Part shown: one piece after another, positions 611 through 6,766 of the stretch | Layout of the letters: each line of letters opens with the position of its first letter | Numbering within the stretch: the first letter of the stretch is position 1 | Source: a virus | DNA length: 64,000 nt | IMG/VR virus record: IMGVR_UViG_3300032246_000381 | Span: 8,446-72,445 of that record | Direction: 5' to 3' (one strand) | The notes under the pieces: model-generated | What the model was told of the DNA's origin: nothing | The model's database searches: none | Seen by the model: only the letters and a program-made list of their open reading frames with translations | Position numbers and translations under genes: made by a program

Positions 611-1747
611 TTAGTGTGTTCTAAAAATGCTGATCTTACCTTCAGCTACCATTCTACGTTTTTCTGCAGCAATGGCTTTCAGTAGTGTTTCAGCAAGATT
701 ATTTCCTGTTCTAATAATGCTGTCTGATGTTGGACCCATAACACGTTCACGTTCTGCATCAATCTCAGCTTGCGACTGTTGTGGAGCAGGCGCAGCAGCA
801 GTTTTCTTATTACGAGTACGTTTTGGTTTAGCACCTTGCTCTTGCCCAGGTGCTTGTTGTGTTGCATCTGCTGCTGGTGCTGCTTGAGTCGCATCTGCTG
901 CTGGTGCTTGTTGTGTTGCATCTGCTGCTGGTGCTGCATTTGGATTACCTGGCTTAGCTTTATTTGTTTTGCTAACCGGAGCATTAGCCATTGTGTTTGC
1001 TGTAGAAGGTGCACCTAGACTGGCGGCCATATTGCCCATTGCAGCGGCACCTGCTGCATCACCTGCCGCTGCTTTAGGATCTGGTGTTCCTAACGACTTG
1101 TTTAGCAATGCTAAAATTCTTTGCTTGCCTTTCTTATCAAGTTGCCCAACTTGTGATTTAACTTGAGCGTATAGTGTTTGTCCTGCTTTTTCTGCTGCTG
1201 GATTAGCTGGAGGTGTTCCTGTTGCGCCGTTTGTAGGAGCTGAACCTGCTGGTGCAGCCGCGCTGCCGCCTTGGGCATTACCACCTGCTACATTAACATT
1301 TGTTGTACTTGGTGCTGCTCCACCTGCTGGTGCTGCTCCACCTGCTGGTGCTGCTGCCACTGGTCTACCGCTAGAATCAAATCCACTGCCACCTGCTGGA
1401 GCACCGCCACCTGCTGGTGCTGCTGCACCACCGCCCGCTGCTGGTGCTGCTGTACCGCCGCCTTGAGCGCCTGCTGCTGGAGCTGCTGCGCCACCTGCTG
1501 CCTGTTGAGGATCTGCTGGAGTTGGATTAGGATCTGCATCACCTGCTACTCTGGCTTTACCTGATGCAAAGCCTTTCTTAAATGCACGTCCCATACCTGC
1601 AACACCGCCTGCTACTGCGCCAACCCCTTTAGCAACACCGCCTGCAACATCACCTACAACGCCACCAATCTTGTTTAAGATTGGTCCTTCTTCAAGATAT
1701 TGTAGTTCGTGTATTTCTGATTCTGTTAGTAATTCTGTTAGTTTCAT
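611..1747 (-). CDS. Ala/Gly/Pro-rich low-complexity protein, putative internal head/ejection protein
   Basis: 378-aa ORF; N-terminus MKLTELLTE; APAGG and APAADATQQ repeats; 1-nt gaps to both neighbours. Confidence 0.75.
   Translation of the reverse strand: MKLTELLTESEIHELQYLEEGPILNKIGGVVGDVAGGVAKGVGAVAGGVAGMGRAFKKGFASGKARVAGDADPNPTPADPQQAAGGAAAPAAGAQGGGTAAPAAGGGAAAPAGGGAPAGGSGFDSSGRPVAAAPAGGAAPAGGAAPSTTNVNVAGGNAQGGSAAAPAGSAPTNGATGTPPANPAAEKAGQTLYAQVKSQVGQLDKKGKQRILALLNKSLGTPDPKAAAGDAAGAAAMGNMAASLGAPSTANTMANAPVSKTNKAKPGNPNAAPAADATQQAPAADATQAAPAADATQQAPGQEQGAKPKRTRNKKTAAAPAPQQSQAEIDAERERVMGPTSDSIIRTGNNLAETLLKAIAAEKRRMVAEGKISIFRTH
849..937 (-). repeat. 27-nt coding tandem repeat (APAADATQQ/APAADATQA, about 3 copies)
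   Basis: TGCTTGTTGTGTTGCATCTGCTGCTGG unit repeated with one variant copy, inside 611..1747. Confidence 0.85.
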
Positions 1748-1748
1748 T

Positions 1749-3221
1749 TTAAGCGGTTCCTAATTGTTTTTGCAGATAGCTTGCGATACGCTGACGTTGT
1801 TTCTTATTTAACTTCAAAACTTGATCTTTGACTTGTTTATATGCACTGGCTGCTGCTGGTGTTTCAGCGGCTGCTGCACCTGCTGAGTCTATTTTCATAT
1901 CGGCATAGACTTTGTCGACTATGTCCGATGTTACTTCCATACTGGCTAAAAACTTTTTGAGTTCTTCAGAATCCGTCGGCGATCCGTCTAGTTTCCACCC
2001 AGCTAGTAATTTTTCATAGGTAACTTTGTTGGTAATATTCTGTCCAACACGATCAATACCCTTGCCTACTGCTGCTGCACCTTTCTTGATCCAATCCATC
2101 GGACCTTCATTTAGTTGACTAGCAGCAACTTTCTTTAATACAACGTAGACCTGGCCTTCACTAAGTGGACGAGTCTGACGATAATAACTTTCTTGTTTTG
2201 CGGGCATCGAACTTGCGCCAGCAACCGCACCTTGACTCAGTGCCTGCCCTGCTTTGGAAACACCGTTTATCCATTGTAGCAAGCTGTCGTTGCTCAGTTG
2301 AACTTGTCGAGCACCCTGCATAATACTGCTGATAGATGACTTGTATTCTGGTGTGTTTATTTCTCTAGCAATAGTTTTTAATGTATCAAAGCCACCTGCT
2401 TGACCATCCCTAATAGCATTCATTGCCTGTGTCACAGCTTCTCGCTGTTCTGGAAACACTGTGATATTAAATCCCTGTATTGTTTCTGTAGAACTCATTC
2501 CAGGTGCGGTCAGTGTTTGTGTTGCACCCCAGTTGACTTTTTCTAGTCCTGCATCTTTAGGTCCAAACGGTATTGCTTGTTCTCTAAATCCACCAACCCA
2601 ATTGCCTAACACTTCAAAGGCTTTGCCAGATAGATAACCCAGTGCTGCGGTCTTAATACCTTTACCGATGGCAGTTGAAAGTTTTTCACCTTTTAGTAAT
2701 TCTGTAGCACCTTTAAGTACTTGACCAGCAATAGCGCCGCCAACAGGACCACCAGCGAGCGAAGCGAGGGCCGTCAAGATTCCGATTACTGCTGCGGTCT
2801 TACCAGGATTATCCTTAACCCAAATAGCCAAGTTTGAAACTCCGTCAAGTATTTTACTGTCAGGGAACTTGGTATTAATGTCATTCTTTAGTTTTTCGAA
2901 CTTGGCATCAAAGTTCTTAACAGGAGTAGTGTCCTGTAGCCATTTACCTGCTTTGTCAATAATGGCATTGACCTGTTTAACTCCGTCTACACCAAGACCC
3001 GCTAGTGTTCTGTTGTTTCCACCTGCTACGGCCTGTTGCTCAACGTTCTTGAATATGTCTTTTACTTGATCAGCTGTCAGAGTTGCTTCGATTAAAGGCA
3101 CGAATTCATTATAGATGTTTTCTACAATAGTTCTTTGTTGCTGTGTTAGTCCATCACACGATTCTTTTAATAATTGCTTTCTCGAATAGTTGTGATTTTC
3201 TAATAATTGTTCAATACGCAT
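1749..3221 (-). CDS. hypothetical virion protein, putative internal head/ejection protein with a hydrophobic Gly-rich segment
   Basis: 490-aa ORF with N-terminus MRIEQLLE; hydrophobic AAVIGILTALASLAGGPVGGAIAG stretch; downstream of a TAAATA motif. Confidence 0.75.
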   Translation of the reverse strand: MRIEQLLENHNYSRKQLLKESCDGLTQQQRTIVENIYNEFVPLIEATLTADQVKDIFKNVEQQAVAGGNNRTLAGLGVDGVKQVNAIIDKAGKWLQDTTPVKNFDAKFEKLKNDINTKFPDSKILDGVSNLAIWVKDNPGKTAAVIGILTALASLAGGPVGGAIAGQVLKGATELLKGEKLSTAIGKGIKTAALGYLSGKAFEVLGNWVGGFREQAIPFGPKDAGLEKVNWGATQTLTAPGMSSTETIQGFNITVFPEQREAVTQAMNAIRDGQAGGFDTLKTIAREINTPEYKSSISSIMQGARQVQLSNDSLLQWINGVSKAGQALSQGAVAGASSMPAKQESYYRQTRPLSEGQVYVVLKKVAASQLNEGPMDWIKKGAAAVGKGIDRVGQNITNKVTYEKLLAGWKLDGSPTDSEELKKFLASMEVTSDIVDKVYADMKIDSAGAAAAETPAAASAYKQVKDQVLKLNKKQRQRIASYLQKQLGTA

Positions 3222-3244
3222 TTATGATCCAAAGATATATGTGT

Positions 3245-3252
3245 TATTTATT
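3245..3252 (-). promoter_or_regulatory. T4-type late promoter (AATAAATA)
   Basis: Plus-strand TATTTATT at 3245-3252, 23 nt upstream of the ATG at 3221. The T4 late consensus is TATAAATA. Confidence 0.65.
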
Positions 3253-3254
3253 AA

Positions 3255-3708
3255 GAACGAGCTTACGCTCGTTTGCTTTTTCGCTTGCGCTCAAAGCACT
3301 TTTTTTCTTTCTTTTATTATTGAACTTATAGTAAGTGCGAAGCACTTTAAGTATTATGCAGATTGTTCAGTCACACTTAACCCAGGACGGGTTAAGAAGC
3401 ATTATGCGAGTTGCACAGTACACTTAGCGTTAAAGCAGTTACAGAGGCGGTCATCCGGTACCTCGAGCTCAGTCAATATGACGGTGGATCAATACATATA
3501 CGCTAACATACGTATCAACCTAAGGGTTTCTCTCCCTTCTTTTTGCCTTGTTTTTCTTTTCAAATAACCAAATCGCAGGGCTTAGTAGCGATCGTCATCC
3601 TTTCGGGTAGTGGTTAAGCACCTTTGCGGCAAGGTTTTCCATCCCTGTGTACACGTAGACCAGGTTTAGAGCGCACGAAATTAGGCCTGCGCCAGCCAAA
3701 AAACCGCT
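3255..3708 (-). ncRNA. candidate large structured non-coding RNA (or structured ssDNA element) of unknown class
   Basis: Gene-free interval with more than 10 hairpins. GNRA loops (GAAA, GUAA, GCAA) and G-U pairs occur only in the minus orientation. There is a 7-nt loop/distal complementarity (3500-3506 with 3424-3430). Confidence 0.6.
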
Positions 3709-4143
3709 TTATTTTGCCTTTGGTTGTTCTAAAAGACGCTGTCTAAGTATATTTGATCCGCCAACTCTGACGTTTATAATGCCATTATAATAGTCATCAG
3801 TTTCTAAAACTCTACGTTCAAACTGTTCTCTAGCTTCTAAATAACTTAGTTCTGCCTTGGATTTGCAAAGATATAGTATTTCTCTTGTGAATTTTTCCGG
3901 ACCTAATGCTTGGACGTCTGCGTTTAACCTATCAGATGAACCCCAGTATTCGCGCCAATCGCTTTCTACTGTGCTTCTTCTTTTAAGTTTTTTGCCTTTG
4001 AGTGGGGGTTTTGTACGTTTAAACTGTGCTAGTTTCTTGCCTATGTACTTCTGTCCGGTTACGGTGTTCGTGATTATGTAAACAAAGCCAATATAGCCTT
4101 CTGGGATTTCATCTACGGGTTGATTTTGATACGTCCATTGCAC
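3709..4143 (-). CDS. GIY-YIG family endonuclease (Seg / Endo II-like)
   Basis: GFVYIITNTVTGQKYIGKK (GIY-YIG motif), YWGSS, FTREIL, conserved E in LSYLEAREQF, and YYN at the end. Confidence 0.85.
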   Translation of the reverse strand: MQWTYQNQPVDEIPEGYIGFVYIITNTVTGQKYIGKKLAQFKRTKPPLKGKKLKRRSTVESDWREYWGSSDRLNADVQALGPEKFTREILYLCKSKAELSYLEAREQFERRVLETDDYYNGIINVRVGGSNILRQRLLEQPKAK

Positions 4144-4374
4144 TCATTTAGTTACCTTGGGAGGCCTTCCAGGCTTGCCTTTTCTGGTTGCTTTACGTGC
4201 TTCTCGTTTTGCCTGTATTTCTGTTCGCCTAGTTGATGCCTCGTTGCGTATTTCTGATAGCCAATATCGTGCCTTAATGCCTGCTTCGTCTGAGCCTCTG
4301 TATTCAAATCGATCCTGCCACTTAAAATATTCCTGAAAAGCAGCGATCATCTTATCGTGACTGTCTGTACTCAA
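4144..4374 (-). CDS. small basic protein, possibly nucleic-acid binding (histone-like Hc1-type fold suspected)
   Basis: 76 aa; AGIKARYWLSEIRNEASTRRTEIQ helix followed by a K/R-rich tail (RKGKPGRPPK). Confidence 0.6.
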   Translation of the reverse strand: MSTDSHDKMIAAFQEYFKWQDRFEYRGSDEAGIKARYWLSEIRNEASTRRTEIQAKREARKATRKGKPGRPPKVTK

Positions 4375-4991: not shown

Positions 4992-6766
4992 CCAACAATC
5001 TCCACGTCATTGCTATAACTGGTAAATCCGTTTTCTTTAATAACCTTGAGCACGTGATTAACACGACTGGTTAGATCATCACGATGTGAAATTAAGAATA
5101 CATTCTTATCTCGTTCACGAGTCATCTTCTTAAGTACTGCAATTGAGCTTTCAACCCCGGAACTATCCATCCCGCTGTCTACAAGTTCGTCGATGAACAG
5201 TAAGTTAATGCTGTGATATAGGTTCTCCCACACATCTCGGAATGCCCAGGACATACTGAGTATCAAACGGTTACGTTCACCACGGCTTAAATTGTCAAAG
5301 TCTAGGTCTTGGCCTAGCTGTGTGATAATAACTGTTAGGTCATTCTGGAATTCTACAATGTGCGGTAAGCCAATCTTGTCAAGATAGTAAGTCAATCGTT
5401 GATTCAAGAACGCTAGATTCTGATCAATAATTCGTTTACGCACAAAGCTGTCTTTGTTTGTCAGTAACTTATACAAGAACTCCTGATGTTCTTTAACACG
5501 TACCAGCTCATTGACCTGATTCCAATCAATTTCCTGCACCGCAGTAGTTTTCAGTTCAGTGATCTGATCGTCGTAGGGATTAGATTCGGCAACTTTAACA
5601 GTTAGATCACGTTCTAGACTGTCAATTGTGCTTTTATGATTAAGCGCCTGCTCTAGTGTGTCGTAGAACACCTTAGGCATCGGACCCAGTTCACCTACTT
5701 CTTTGAGAGCATCTGTAAGTTCAATCCACTGAGTGTTATCTGAGAGGTATTGTAGCGCAGACTCTTGTAGAGCTTTCTTTTTACCTGCCAGCACTTCTTC
5801 GTGTTTGGTATCGTGTAGGTCTTGACCACAGGCATAACACTTGTGATCTTCGAGATCTGCAATTTCTTTTTTCAGTTTATCGCTTTGCTTGGTATCTCGT
5901 TCCATATCCAGCTCAGCACGAGCAATAGCTTTAGTTAGATCTGCGATGTCTTTGCTTTTGCTATTGTATTCAATTAATGATCTATGTGCTAGAATCTCTG
6001 AGTCAATATCAATATGACTCAGTGTTTCAATACTCTTACGTAGATTATCCAACGCACTTTCTTTAGTTTCTTCCCACATACGCTGTTTTCTTTCCAGCGA
6101 TTCAATACTCTGTTGAATACGTTCATTTGAAACTTTGATAGTTTCGATGCGAGTATTTTCTGTAGTGATTGCATCCTTGGTAATCTTGGTCTGTTCTTTA
6201 AGAGCTTCTGCTTTTTCACTCAACAGAGTAATACCCAACAACTGCTCAATGATCATACGCTGTTCAGCAGCCTTAGTTGCCAAGAACGGTTCTGTGTAGG
6301 TATTCAACGCCACTAGATGCTTGAACATCTCGTGCTTCATACCAAACATCTCTTCAATTGCCTTCTGTGTTTCTCTGCTGTCGCCCTGACTTTCGTCTAG
6401 ATCTTCTAGTTCTTGTTCCTGACCGTTGACACTGAACTTTAGAACATTGGGTTTACGACCACGCTCAATGTGATAGTCAATGCCATCCTTTTCAAAGCTG
6501 ACAGTTACCAACATACCTTTGCCGTTGATCTTGTTAATCAAGTTATCACGTTTGATATTTGTCAATGCCTGTCCGTAGATAGCATAGCTAAGACCGTTAA
6601 TGATTGTGGTTTTACCTGTGCCGTTACGAGCTCCGCTGTCGTCTCCTCCTAGATCTAGGTTTTCACCTAGCACCAGAGTCAGCTGTCCTCGATCAAAGTC
6701 GATGGCCTGGGTCTGTGCGCCCACGCTCATAAAATTACGTACTGTGAGATTCTTAATTTTTATCAT
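4988..6766 (-). CDS. gp46: recombination endonuclease ATPase subunit (Rad50/SbcC-like, T4 gp46)
   Basis: Walker A NGTGKT, CYAC zinc hook, LSRGE signature, LFIDE Walker B, ISH motif. Confidence 0.95.
   Translation of the reverse strand: MIKIKNLTVRNFMSVGAQTQAIDFDRGQLTLVLGENLDLGGDDSGARNGTGKTTIINGLSYAIYGQALTNIKRDNLINKINGKGMLVTVSFEKDGIDYHIERGRKPNVLKFSVNGQEQELEDLDESQGDSRETQKAIEEMFGMKHEMFKHLVALNTYTEPFLATKAAEQRMIIEQLLGITLLSEKAEALKEQTKITKDAITTENTRIETIKVSNERIQQSIESLERKQRMWEETKESALDNLRKSIETLSHIDIDSEILAHRSLIEYNSKSKDIADLTKAIARAELDMERDTKQSDKLKKEIADLEDHKCYACGQDLHDTKHEEVLAGKKKALQESALQYLSDNTQWIELTDALKEVGELGPMPKVFYDTLEQALNHKSTIDSLERDLTVKVAESNPYDDQITELKTTAVQEIDWNQVNELVRVKEHQEFLYKLLTNKDSFVRKRIIDQNLAFLNQRLTYYLDKIGLPHIVEFQNDLTVIITQLGQDLDFDNLSRGERNRLILSMSWAFRDVWENLYHSINLLFIDELVDSGMDSSGVESSIAVLKKMTRERDKNVFLISHRDDLTSRVNHVLKVIKENGFTSYSNDVEIVG

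What the first reader, a model, noticed from the sequence alone, without database searches (positions are those of the whole stretch)
3255..4374. Large structured RNA-like element directly behind a GIY-YIG nuclease gene: candidate nuclease-ncRNA system
Seen in the sequence: the only large gene-free interval in this dense window (~460 nt) starts right after the GIY-YIG stop codon and is packed with helices. These are 3671-3675/3688-3692; 3644-3647/3661-3664; 3620-3624/3631-3635; a multibranch stem 3565-3570/3611-3616 enclosing a CC-GAAA-GG loop and 3572-3576/3588-3592; 3522-3526/3534-3538; a 10-bp stem 3491-3500/3507-3516; 3444-3464; and a perfect 8-bp stem 3376-3383/3389-3396. The 10-bp stem only closes on the minus strand, where it uses G-U pairs, and the GNRA loops also read correctly only on the minus strand, i.e. 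co-oriented with the nuclease. The loop UUAGCG(U) (3500-3506) is complementary to ACGCUAA (3424-3430), a likely pseudoknot. The nuclease has a very basic insertion (KRTKPPLKGKKLKRR), and a small basic protein gene abuts it upstream. Established: nuclease ORFs with adjacent structured RNAs occur in HEARO/IscB-omegaRNA, TnpB-reRNA and intron systems. I do not recognise this fold as tRNA, tmRNA, RNase P or a group I/II intron. Inference: an undescribed phage ncRNA, possibly forming an RNP with the GIY-YIG protein, or a structured origin or processing element that the nuclease acts on.
Basis: partly seen in the sequence, partly recalled or inferred. Interest (0 to 1): 0.85.

Follow-up and report, generated by a model that had tools for sequence, protein, structure and literature searches.

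The report
Knotted twin-box RNA behind phage nuclease
The gene-free 460 bases behind a small nuclease gene of this uncultured giant T4-like lake phage encode a real, multiply knotted non-coding RNA that carries one 7-letter word twice; the same RNA also occurs in bacterial islands that have no such nuclease, so the nuclease looks like a neighbour, and the RNA's job is unknown.

Summary
Window 3255-3707 (minus strand) is a structured RNA of about 450 nt.

- **Known part.** The 5' third (3562-3697) is Rfam RF01718, Polynucleobacter-1, at 101.5 bits against a cut-off of 37. This is a catalogued motif of unknown function.
- **Uncatalogued part.** The other ~310 nt match nothing in Rfam. They hold a central double pseudoknot, two boxes and a terminal hairpin.
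- **Twin boxes.** ACUC-GCAUAAU (3411-3401) and AUCU-GCAUAAU (3363-3353) always carry the same 7-nt word. That word changed at least 24 times on a 64-sequence tree.
- **Link to the nuclease.**
  - The SegE-type GIY-YIG gene sits directly upstream in about 108 of 119 RNA-seeded phage contigs.
  - Its homologues in Melnitz, P-SSM2, S-SRM01 and phiM12 have no such RNA.
  - The RNA occurs as a stand-alone gene beside DUF6641 and a small integrase in betaproteobacterial islands.

An obligate nuclease RNP is therefore unlikely. The function, and whatever reads the twin word, remain unknown. This scan had already noted the same RNA family on other DNA.

The parts
3255..3707 (-). Whole non-coding RNA, about 450 nt. 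It runs from the 5' pseudoknot strand next to the nuclease stop codon to the terminal hairpin. The ends are inferred, not mapped.
   Evidence: Conserved in 101 of 119 related loci beyond the Rfam part. Covariation over 21 helices. No conserved ORF.
3562..3697 (-). 5' domain = Rfam RF01718, Polynucleobacter-1 RNA. Helices 3692-3688/3675-3671, 3664-3661/3647-3644, 3636-3631/3624-3620, 3616-3611/3570-3565 and 3593-3588/3576-3571, plus the CC-GAAA-GG loop.
   Evidence: cmscan 101.5 bits against gathering score 37, model positions 1-141 of 141. Helices 3-9 are 94-99% paired with compensatory changes.
3703..3707 (-). 5' leader strand of a pseudoknot with the loop of the third helix (3627-3630). It lies outside the Rfam model and touches the nuclease stop codon (3709-3711).
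   Evidence: Columns 13-17 with 103-107: 89.5% paired, 3 of 5 pairs with double changes. The same pairing is visible with other letters (CUACUG/CAGUAG) in the bacterial version.
3490..3517 (-).
   Evidence: 6 of 6 stem pairs with double changes and up to 6 pair types per pair. G-U pairs fix the strand.
3424..3430 (-). 3' strand of the long-range pseudoknot with loop 3500-3506.
   Evidence: 7 of 7 pairs covary, 96-97% paired.
3432..3482 (-). Central knotted core. Helix 3482-3478/3454-3450 crosses helices 3471-3467/3436-3432 and 3464-3460/3448-3444. Near-invariant GGUACC and ACCGCC.
   Evidence: Helices 14-16 are 92-97% paired and 9 of 15 pairs have double changes. Invariant columns are listed. 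The ACCGCC core is also present in the bacterial version.
3401..3411 (-). Box 1: ACUC + word GCAUAAU (word = 3407-3401).
   Evidence: Direct covariation with box 2: columns 492/558, 493/559, 496/562 and 498/564 carry the same letter in 97-100% of rows.
3376..3396 (-). 8-bp hairpin between the two boxes.
   Evidence: Helices 17-18 are 96-99% paired. 5 of 7 pairs covary across the phage and bacterial types.
3353..3363 (-). Box 2: AUCU + the same word GCAUAAU (word = 3359-3353).
   Evidence: As for box 1. The 7-nt word is identical in both boxes in 95 of 99 RNA-seeded loci and in 50 of 59 nuclease-seeded loci.
3275..3297 (-). Conserved hairpin UGCUU-UGAGCG-CAA-GCGAA-AAGCA, with a GA-rich internal motif.
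   Evidence: Helices 19-20 are 91-97% paired and 5 of 5 pairs have double changes. The motif UGAGCG..GCGAA is kept in types A, B and C.
3255..3274 (-). Terminal 8-bp hairpin, the probable 3' end or terminator. It is followed by the late-promoter-like AAUAAAUA (3246-3253) of the next gene.
   Evidence: Terminator-like site (scored on the plus strand; the stem is palindromic). 5 of 5 pairs covary but only 79% are paired. Reading it as a T4-type late promoter is recalled knowledge, not a test.
3709..4143 (-). SegE-type GIY-YIG nuclease gene, 144 aa, catalytic domain only. A constant upstream neighbour in this phage lineage.
   Evidence: Pfam PF19835, E = 2.4e-36, profile positions 1-123 of 123. 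GIY, YIG, E and N positions are conserved. A homologue lies within 4 kb of the RNA in 111 of 119 loci.
4144..4374 (-). 76-aa basic ORF with a GRP (AT-hook-like) C-terminus. A variable neighbour, not part of the unit.
   Evidence: Homologue in only 44 of 119 loci. No Pfam or PHROG family.

Best explanation
Window 3255-3707 (minus strand) is a gene for a non-coding RNA of about 450 nt with three parts:
- a 5' domain, which is the Rfam Polynucleobacter-1 motif plus a 5' pseudoknot strand that the Rfam model lacks;
- a central core locked by two crossing pseudoknots;
- a 3' domain in which two boxes, about 48 nt apart and separated by a hairpin, display the same 7-nt word. This domain ends in two conserved hairpins.

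In this phage the RNA is most likely made as the tail of the early or middle transcript that carries the GIY-YIG gene. It probably ends at the last hairpin, just before a late-type promoter (inferred).

The RNA is an autonomous module carried by mobile elements. The same architecture stands alone, without a co-oriented upstream gene, in betaproteobacterial genomic islands (a promoter there is inferred, not tested), and a version with a different 5' domain follows the same nuclease gene in other uncultured T4-like phages.

I therefore read the nuclease as a fixed syntenic neighbour. I read the RNA as a trans-acting, folded RNA whose two identical boxes are the business end. They must be read as a matched pair, by a partner that tells G from A.

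- Shown: the RNA structure, the family, the twin-word rule, and independence from the nuclease.
- Inferred: the transcript ends, action in trans, and the boxes being the recognition site.

The confidence figure is for the whole statement. My odds for its parts are: a real structured RNA about 0.95; not an obligate partner of the nuclease about 0.75; the boxes being the recognition site of a trans-acting RNA about 0.4.
For: Structure:
- RF01718 match at 101.5 bits.
- 84 pairs in 21 helices, 94.1% paired against 78.5% (shuffled, 0 of 500 reach it) and 34-43% (slid). 62 of 84 pairs have double changes.
- The MI scan finds the same pairs without prior structure.

Family size:
- The tail beyond the Rfam part is conserved in 101 of 119 loci.
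- At least 587 viral contigs encode the nuclease relative. Of 59 such loci with at least 450 nt downstream, 50 have a 7/7 twin word.

Twin word:
- Identical in 95 of 99 RNA-seeded loci.
- On a tree built without the box columns, the word changes at least 24 times. Each variable position changes the same number of times in both boxes (13, 5, 6, 4). Only 1 of 64 rows is mixed.

Independence from the nuclease:
- Homologues without the RNA: Melnitz, S-SRM01, P-SSM2 and phiM12. My twin-box model found nothing better than E = 0.09 in those four genomes.
- RNA without the nuclease: 10 loci from bacterial genome or MAG records with RF01718 at 84-104 bits and no tblastn hit to the nuclease.
- The same three-part architecture, with twin boxes and a divergent DUF6641 gene, is seen there. 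It is also seen on a 149-kb chromosomal contig.
- Locus L083 has an unrelated upstream ORF.

Expression hint: contigs from freshwater RNA libraries of 2 of the 4 studies laid cover the RNA region. Two contigs bridge the ORF/RNA junction, at 3556-3775 and 3658-3830.
Against: - No transcript ends are mapped. The RNA-library contigs are from 90-95% relatives, and DNA carry-over cannot be excluded.
- Within the phage lineage the nuclease-RNA adjacency is almost perfect. Of 109 loci with a 110-170-aa ORF ending within 45 nt of the RNA, 108 are homologues.
- The RNA's first pseudoknot strand abuts the nuclease stop codon. A functional coupling in this lineage (cis regulation, or a lineage-specific RNP) is therefore not excluded.
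- No partner for the twin word was found in cis or in the 64-kb window.
- The single-sequence fold is only z = -1.77.
- The RNA-less cultured homologues share only 35-66% identity with this nuclease. They show the protein family can work alone, not that this clade's protein does.
Confidence: 0.6

Rival explanations
1. Nuclease-RNA particle. The RNA binds the DNA-binding-domain-less GIY-YIG protein and supplies target recognition through the variable twin word, in the manner of IscB-omegaRNA or TnpB-reRNA.
For: - The gene and RNA are adjacent, co-oriented and probably co-transcribed in about 108 of 119 loci.
- The protein is the catalytic domain only.
- The word is short, variable and changes fast, as a guide would.
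- In the bacterial islands the RNA lies 0.9-1.5 kb upstream of a 188-212-aa tyrosine recombinase that is also catalytic domain only. This holds in 4 of the 4 loci with at least 2 kb downstream.
Against: - The protein family is widespread without the RNA: 531 phage records, and the four I inspected have none.
- The RNA occurs without the protein.
- The basic segment is a family trait and is not specific to RNA-bearing members.
- No complementary target was found nearby or in the window.
- A guide read by Watson-Crick or wobble pairing should tolerate G/A mixtures between the boxes, yet only 1 of 64 rows is mixed.
Confidence: 0.08
2. Cis-acting tail of the nuclease mRNA. It would be a 3' UTR that stabilises, terminates or feeds back on the upstream operon, or a leader for the next (late) gene, as the 2010 catalogue's 'cis-regulatory: yes' flag suggests.
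For: - The structure starts at the stop codon, so a terminating ribosome would melt the first pseudoknot (sequence).
- A terminal hairpin sits before a late-promoter-like box.
- The table in PMC2864571 marks the motif as likely cis-regulatory (only that table row was seen).
Against: - In the bacterial islands the RNA has no co-oriented upstream gene; DUF6641 is divergent. It ends in its own hairpin about 500 nt before the next ORF.
- The upstream gene can be swapped (L083).
- The downstream genes differ: the 490-aa gene is found in only 10 of 119 loci.
- Some 450 nt with three pseudoknots and a paired-word rule is far more than a stabiliser needs.
Confidence: 0.12
3. Self-recognising ornate RNA. 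The two boxes contact each other directly, for example as a parallel-stranded same-letter pairing within or between molecules, as part of a fold or homo-oligomer like those of GOLLD and ROOL.
For: - Same-letter covariation at four variable positions, with almost no mixed states, is what like-with-like pairing predicts. It is hard to get from pairing to a common wobble-tolerant partner.
- No third strand covaries with the boxes.
- The 40-50-nt linker with a hairpin could let the strands run in parallel (inference).
- Large phage-borne RNAs are known to form RNA-only assemblies (abstract of 10.1101/2024.12.08.627333, seen in the listing).
Against: - I know of no natural RNA with a 7-nt mixed-sequence parallel homoduplex (recalled).
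- The constant flanks differ (CUC against UCU).
- Nothing here tests three-dimensional structure.
Confidence: 0.1
4. A DNA-level element (a replication origin, a single-strand initiation site or a nuclease target site), not an RNA.
For: - Direct repeats that stay identical recall iterons or the identical crossover cores of recombination sites.
- The element lies beside DNA-metabolism genes, gp46/gp47-like.
Against: - Compensatory changes run through 21 helices, with many G-U pairs on one strand only.
- There is a GNRA loop and a match to an RNA family model.
- RNA-library contigs cover the region.
- The flanks of the words are not inverted repeats, as recombinase sites would be (sequence).
Confidence: 0.03

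Closest known systems
Polynucleobacter-1 RNA motif (Rfam RF01718; Weinberg et al. 2010, Genome Biol 11:R31, PMC2864571; I saw only the table row, as the supplements are closed)
   Same: Window 3562-3697 is a full-length, high-scoring member. The habitat fits: Burkholderiales, and fresh water or estuary.
   Different: - The catalogued motif is 141 nt. Here, and in the bacterial loci, it is only the first third of an RNA of about 450-500 nt.
- The 5' pseudoknot strand, the central double knot, the twin boxes and the terminal hairpins are not in the model.
- A sister branch of phage RNAs keeps the 3' domain but has another 5' domain and gives no RF01718 match: 0 of 20 loci.
GOLLD (RF01998) and ROOL (RF03087), large ornate RNAs often carried by phages and prophages
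   Same: A large, multi-domain, pseudoknotted RNA of unknown function carried by phages and other mobile elements.
   Different: No match to either model above the gathering score. The domains are different, and the twin-word rule is not described for those RNAs as far as I know (recalled).
IscB/HEARO omegaRNA and TnpB reRNA (RNA-guided nucleases of mobile elements)
   Same: A nuclease gene with a large structured RNA directly beside it on the same strand, and a short variable segment in the RNA.
   Different: - The nuclease is GIY-YIG, not RuvC/HNH.
- The RNA lies 3' of the gene, and the variable word is internal and duplicated.
- The protein family occurs without the RNA, and the RNA without the protein.
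- There is no HEARO match.
Free-standing Seg-type homing endonucleases of T4 that sit beside conserved RNA genes (segB in the tRNA cluster; recalled, not checked here)
   Same: A Seg-family GIY-YIG gene next to a conserved structured-RNA gene in a T4-like genome.
   Different: The gene here is fixed, not sporadic. It lacks the DNA-binding domain, and its family is a conserved gene of cyanomyoviruses.

Membership tests
Rfam RF01718 Polynucleobacter-1 RNA | Covariance-model score at or above the curated gathering score (37 bits) | tested here: met
   101.5 bits, E = 8.5e-21, minus strand 3562-3697. Found again in the own record.
Rfam RF01718 Polynucleobacter-1 RNA | Full-length match to the model with its helices intact | tested here: met
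   Model positions 1-141 of 141, two non-standard pairs marked. The model's helices covary in 68 relatives (helices 3-9).
Rfam RF01718 Polynucleobacter-1 RNA | Occurrence in Burkholderiales and in fresh-water sequence | tested here: met
   Matches in MAGs labelled Polynucleobacter, Limnohabitans and Aquabacterium. Over the cut-off in 4 of 151 sampled genomes of one order. Freshwater RNA libraries hold relatives.
RNA-guided nuclease systems (IscB-omegaRNA/HEARO, TnpB-reRNA) | The RNA belongs to the HEARO/omegaRNA or reRNA families | tested here: not met
   RF01718 is the only family over its gathering score in the 64-kb window. Nothing else is significant at E <= 10 in 3150-3800.
RNA-guided nuclease systems (IscB-omegaRNA/HEARO, TnpB-reRNA) | Protein and RNA are mutually dependent, so neither occurs without the other | tested here: not met
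   Protein without RNA. RNA without protein. Swapped upstream gene in L083.
RNA-guided nuclease systems (IscB-omegaRNA/HEARO, TnpB-reRNA) | A variable guide segment complementary to a DNA target | tested here: inconclusive
   A variable 7-nt word exists. No complementary site was found at a consistent place within +/-1.5 kb, in the window or in a bacterial island.
Group I intron carrying a GIY-YIG homing endonuclease gene | Match to the group I intron model, and an interrupted host gene | tested here: not met
   No intron family at E <= 10. The flanking ORFs are separate genes that differ between loci: 76-aa in 44 and 490-aa in 10 of 119.
GOLLD / ROOL large ornate RNAs | Match to RF01998 or RF03087 | tested here: not met
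   No match over the gathering score in the window. The likeness is in kind only.
SegE-type GIY-YIG nuclease (Pfam PF19835), for the neighbouring gene | Profile match over the curated cut-off, with the catalytic motifs kept | tested here: met
   125.1 bits against 25, profile positions 1-123 of 123. G19-Y22, Y33-G35, E103 and N120 are invariant in 10 diverse homologues. Activity was not tested.
Intrinsic terminator (for hairpin 3255-3274) | GC-rich stem followed by a U-run on the transcribed strand | tested here: inconclusive
   The scan scores the site on the plus strand. On the minus strand the stem is followed by UCUUAAUAAAUAA in the window and by UUUAUAAAU in many relatives, which is a poor U-run.

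The most novel reading that the evidence does not exclude
The RNA is a programmable specificity module for DNA enzymes that lack their own DNA-binding domain. These would be the SegE-type nuclease in the phages and the ~200-aa catalytic-domain-only tyrosine recombinase in the bacterial islands. Its duplicated 7-nt word would bring the enzyme to two identical DNA sites, a new kind of RNA-directed cutting or recombination. An equally unexcluded variant is that the two boxes pair like-with-like in a parallel duplex, a structural motif not known in natural RNAs.
Probability: 0.07. Interest if true: 0.95.

Novelty: new variant of a known kind. Interest (0 to 1): 0.68.

Why it matters
A catalogued but unexplained 141-nt motif turns out to be the front end of an RNA of about 450-500 nt. 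That RNA is kept by hundreds of uncultured giant T4-like phages and by genomic islands of lake bacteria.

It has three pseudoknots and a rule I have not seen described elsewhere: two boxes that must carry the same fast-changing word. That rule is a precise, testable handle (change one box, or both) on the function of a large orphan RNA.

The bacterial version, in Polynucleobacter-like genomes, could allow genetics without the uncultured phage. The three full-text searches I ran found only the 2010 catalogue for this RNA. The supplements of that paper, which I could not open, may say more about its gene context.

Tried and rejected
- **Cis partner for the twin word.** I looked for a 7-mer complement (at least 6 Watson-Crick pairs) within -1.5 to +2 kb of the RNA start in 64 loci. 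There was no consistent site. Two apparent clusters, at +600-670 and +1300-1375, are conserved codons of opposite-strand genes in single clades, so they give no covariation test.
- **Partner in the 64-kb window.** The best hit is a 12-nt run inside the next gene, which is not distinguishable from chance.
- **The word as a frequent genome motif.** It occurs 16 times against a mean of 12.3 for comparable 7-mers.
- **The word at other sites of a bacterial island.** 5 matches against 7.6 expected.
- **Other columns of the RNA covarying with the boxes.** None for the first two variable positions. The third and fourth show weaker links (MI 0.60-0.67), to the two sides of one 5'-domain base pair and to two poorly aligned columns in the late-promoter-like stretch. 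These are not separable from clade structure and form no consistent strand.
- **Stop codons or a translational-bypass reading of the boxes.** The phage words contain UAA or UGA, but the bacterial words (AUCGAAA, AGCGAAA, ACCAAAA) do not.
- **Box 1 as the loop of its own hairpin.** The longest flanking complement is no better than in shuffles (5.9 against 6.0). Type-B sequences do show a covarying stem by eye. I make no claim for the window.
My twin-box model found no match at E <= 1 in NC_025447. The model covers one subdomain only, so this is not proof of absence.
- **Marginal model hits in Melnitz** (E = 0.09 and 0.18). They have no twin boxes.
- **Parts of the stretch without cover in the RNA libraries, and runs X2 and X4 covering only the ORF.** No conclusion can be drawn.
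- **A count** (core word GGGATGGAA within 200 nt in 3 of 59 nuclease-seeded loci). It disagrees with the nhmmer result, where 24 of the 80 nuclease-seeded loci matched from the 5' domain. I think my ORF-end finder was off for some loci and I do not use that count.
- **A crude ORF-coverage test of 'the only gene-free gap'.** It was uninformative.
- **Not used:** protein structure prediction, complex prediction, and the large protein searches.
Full report
**What is at the coordinates.** The window is a 64-kb piece of a 72-kb IMG/VR virus record that CheckV rates 18% complete. It has T4-like replication and recombination genes on the minus strand. ORF 3709-4143 (minus, 144 aa) is a full-length match to Pfam PF19835, the SegE-type GIY-YIG domain (E = 2.4e-36, profile positions 1-123 of 123). 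It is the catalytic domain with no DNA-binding module. The next minus-strand ORF starts at 3221. Between them there is no minus-strand ORF of 40 aa or more and no tRNA or tmRNA.

**Known part.** Rfam gives one match over its gathering score in the whole window: RF01718, Polynucleobacter-1 RNA, at 3562-3697 on the minus strand. It scores 101.5 bits against a cut-off of 37 and covers model positions 1-141 of 141. The only paper in the searchable library that names this motif is the 2010 catalogue, PMC2864571. I saw only its table row: RNA likely, cis-regulatory likely, riboswitch unknown, found in Burkholderiales and fresh water or estuary. Its supplements are closed. The remaining ~340 nt (3222-3561) match nothing in Rfam at E <= 10 beyond noise.

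**Relatives.**
- In 111 of the 119, a homologue of the 144-aa protein lies within 4 kb.
- In 109 of them, an ORF of 110-170 aa ends within 45 nt upstream of the RNA on the same strand. One of these (L083) is an unrelated protein, at 15% identity.
- Seven of the eight loci with no ORF of 50 aa or more called upstream of the RNA have the RNA at the edge of the DNA held. The eighth (L084) looks like a chance pattern match.
- The other neighbours vary: the 76-aa ORF is in 44 loci, the 206-aa oxygenase in 3, and the 490-aa downstream gene in 10.
- The ~330 nt after the Rfam part are conserved at the DNA level in 101 of the 119 loci, at 69-99% identity.
- They are not conserved as an ORF. Any antisense ORF of 50 aa or more overlapping at least 200 nt of the element occurs in only 37 of 97 loci.

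**Structure.**
- I aligned 68 non-redundant copies (A1).
- I wrote these as 84 pairs in 21 helices and counted them. 94.1% of cells are paired, against 78.5% in shuffles (0 of 500 reach it) and 34-43% when the partner is slid by 1-3 columns.
- 62 of the 84 pairs change on both sides. The covariation score is 0.454 against 0.180.
- The structure was derived from this same alignment, which favours it against the slid controls. The size of the gap and the number of pair types (up to six per pair) leave little doubt all the same.

- The leader 3703-3707, next to the stop codon, pairs with the loop of the third helix (3627-3630 in the window).
- 3697-3695 pairs with 3686-3683.
- The central core is a double knot. 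Helix 3482-3478/3454-3450 crosses 3471-3467/3436-3432 and 3464-3460/3448-3444.
- The single-sequence fold alone is weak evidence (z = -1.77).

**The twin boxes.**
- Two stretches, ACUC-GCAUAAU (3411-3401) and AUCU-GCAUAAU (3363-3353), flank the 8-bp hairpin 3396-3376.
- Across the alignment their four variable positions carry the same letter in both boxes in 97-100% of rows. This is covariation by identity, not by complementarity.
- On a tree built with the box columns left out, the word changes at least 24 times among 64 rows. Each variable position changes equally often in both boxes (13, 5, 6 and 4 times). One row (L054) is mixed.
- A 7/7 identical pair is found in 95 of 99 RNA-seeded loci with enough sequence, and in 50 of 59 nuclease-seeded loci. 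By my rough estimate, chance would give under 0.001 per locus.
- No other column of the RNA covaries with the first two variable positions of the word. The third and fourth show only weaker links (MI 0.60-0.67) that I cannot separate from clade structure. No complementary site turns up nearby or in the window.
- Mixed G/A states are almost absent although G and A swap 13 times. A reader that pairs by wobble-tolerant base pairing is therefore not an easy fit. Something tells G from A in both boxes at once.

**Is the nuclease a partner?** I also searched from the protein side.
- At least 587 viral contigs encode relatives.
- Those closest to the window have the full element starting 2 nt after the protein match.
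- A more distant group (71-79% identity) has no RF01718 domain: 0 of 20 loci at E <= 0.1. It still has about 500 nt without a consistent ORF. That stretch has a different 5' domain, a different central core, and the same 3' domain with twin boxes (ACUC-ACAUGAA / AUCU-ACAUGAA), the UGAGCG..GCGAA hairpin and a terminal hairpin (A3).
- Further out, the protein family is common in cultured phages: 531 records, 339 of them Synechococcus phages, often mislabelled 'NAD synthetase'.
- In Melnitz, S-SRM01, P-SSM2 and phiM12 the next gene follows within 0-148 nt and there is no such RNA. My twin-box covariance model found nothing better than E = 0.09 in these genomes.

**RNA without the nuclease.**
- The same pattern in bacterial and archaeal genomes gave 96 matches, about what chance predicts. 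Eleven of them are real RF01718 RNAs at 84-104 bits.
- One (L149, a MAG labelled Polynucleobacter) is the phage arrangement with the nuclease. The other ten have no nuclease homologue in the 4-8 kb held.
- In those ten, the motif is again the front of a longer conserved RNA (nine shown; the tenth, L180, matches L161 over the part held). It has the leader pseudoknot (CUACUG with CAGUAG) and a core with AAAGGAGA..GCGAAACCGCCCUU. It has twin boxes (for example ACUC-AUCGAAA / AUCU-AUCGAAA), the UGAGCG..GCGAA hairpin and a terminal hairpin.
- Upstream and divergent lies a DUF6641 gene, in all ten loci. That family assignment rests on one scanned ORF and on visibly similar sequences in the others.
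- About 0.9-1.5 kb downstream, in all four loci with at least 2 kb of sequence, lies a 188-212-aa tyrosine recombinase that is little more than the catalytic domain.
- One such locus sits on a 149-kb contig of a 1.9-Mb genome.
- RF01718 is over its cut-off in 4 of 151 sampled genomes of that order. That patchiness fits a mobile island.

**Expression.**
- Seventeen RNA-library runs from freshwater or lake studies hold part of the stretch.
- Of the four I laid, two have contigs over the RNA: X1 at 3346-3467 and 3483-3684, and X3 at 3556-3775 and 3658-3830. The X3 contigs bridge the ORF/RNA junction.
- These contigs are from relatives (90-95% alike), and DNA carry-over cannot be excluded. This is a hint of co-transcription, not proof.

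**Reading.** It is a large non-coding RNA, but a third of it is already catalogued. The evidence goes against an obligate nuclease-RNA particle, because the protein occurs without the RNA, the RNA without the protein, and the upstream gene is swapped in one locus.

I read it as an autonomous RNA module of mobile elements. In this phage lineage it has settled at the end of the transcription unit that carries the GIY-YIG gene, just before a late-promoter-like box (AAUAAAUA, 3246-3253). The promoter reading is from memory of T4 and was not tested. The two boxes are the most likely working part. What reads them is unknown.

A lineage-specific coupling to the nuclease, a cis role, or direct box-to-box contact are not excluded, and I score them as rivals.

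**Relation to earlier notes.** After I had reached this reading, I found that this scan had already reported the same RNA family on other DNA at least 15 times, with the same conclusions: a real RNA, knotted, a twin word, and the nuclease as a neighbour. One note's lead to E. coli phage 121Q was not reproduced with my subdomain model.

Noticed in passing
L316 (G054:C4:66000-80000), RNA at locus 6578-6718 minus strand; also L161, L210, L202, L208, L201, L162, L150, L172, L187: Bacterial version of the RNA. It is a stand-alone gene of about 500 nt (RF01718 front, ACCGCC core, twin boxes, terminal hairpin). It lies divergent from a DUF6641 gene and 0.9-1.5 kb upstream of a 188-212-aa catalytic-domain-only tyrosine recombinase. 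DUF6876 lies nearby in some loci. It looks like a genomic island of lake Betaproteobacteria.
   Followed up: partly
L240-L297 (for example L243:2948-3510): A sister branch of phage RNAs behind the same nuclease gene has a different 5' domain (TAAGGTTGGCGGGCCAGT...) and a different core (GATGTCGACGTAGGTTGGGAAAGGTCAGAGCCC). It keeps the twin-box 3' domain. No Rfam family matches it in 20 loci.
   Followed up: partly
L083:4681-5133 (minus): One phage locus has the RNA directly behind an unrelated 151-aa ORF instead of the GIY-YIG gene.
   Followed up: no
window 3709-4143, and the phage records: Homologues of this SegE-type GIY-YIG protein are labelled 'NAD synthetase' in many cyanophage records and in PHROG 447. 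The Pfam match suggests that the label is wrong.
   Followed up: no
window 611-1747 (minus): A 378-aa protein that is mostly Ala/Gly/Pro-rich low-complexity sequence, with repeated APAADATQ units. It has no family match. Homologues occur in 14 of the 119 loci.
   Followed up: no
window 4144-4374 (minus): A 76-aa basic ORF ending in KGKPGRPPK, an AT-hook-like GRP motif. It abuts the nuclease start and is present in only 44 of the 119 loci.
   Followed up: no
G005 (the genome of L149), contigs C80 and C51: A MAG labelled Polynucleobacter holds two RF01718 copies on different contigs. One is the phage-type arrangement with the nuclease, which may be a mis-binned phage contig.
   Followed up: no
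window 3275-3297, and the equivalent in all three RNA types: The hairpin with the near-invariant UGAGCG...GCGAA internal motif (tandem G-A candidates) resembles a kink-turn or loop-E-like protein-binding site. This was not tested.
   Followed up: no
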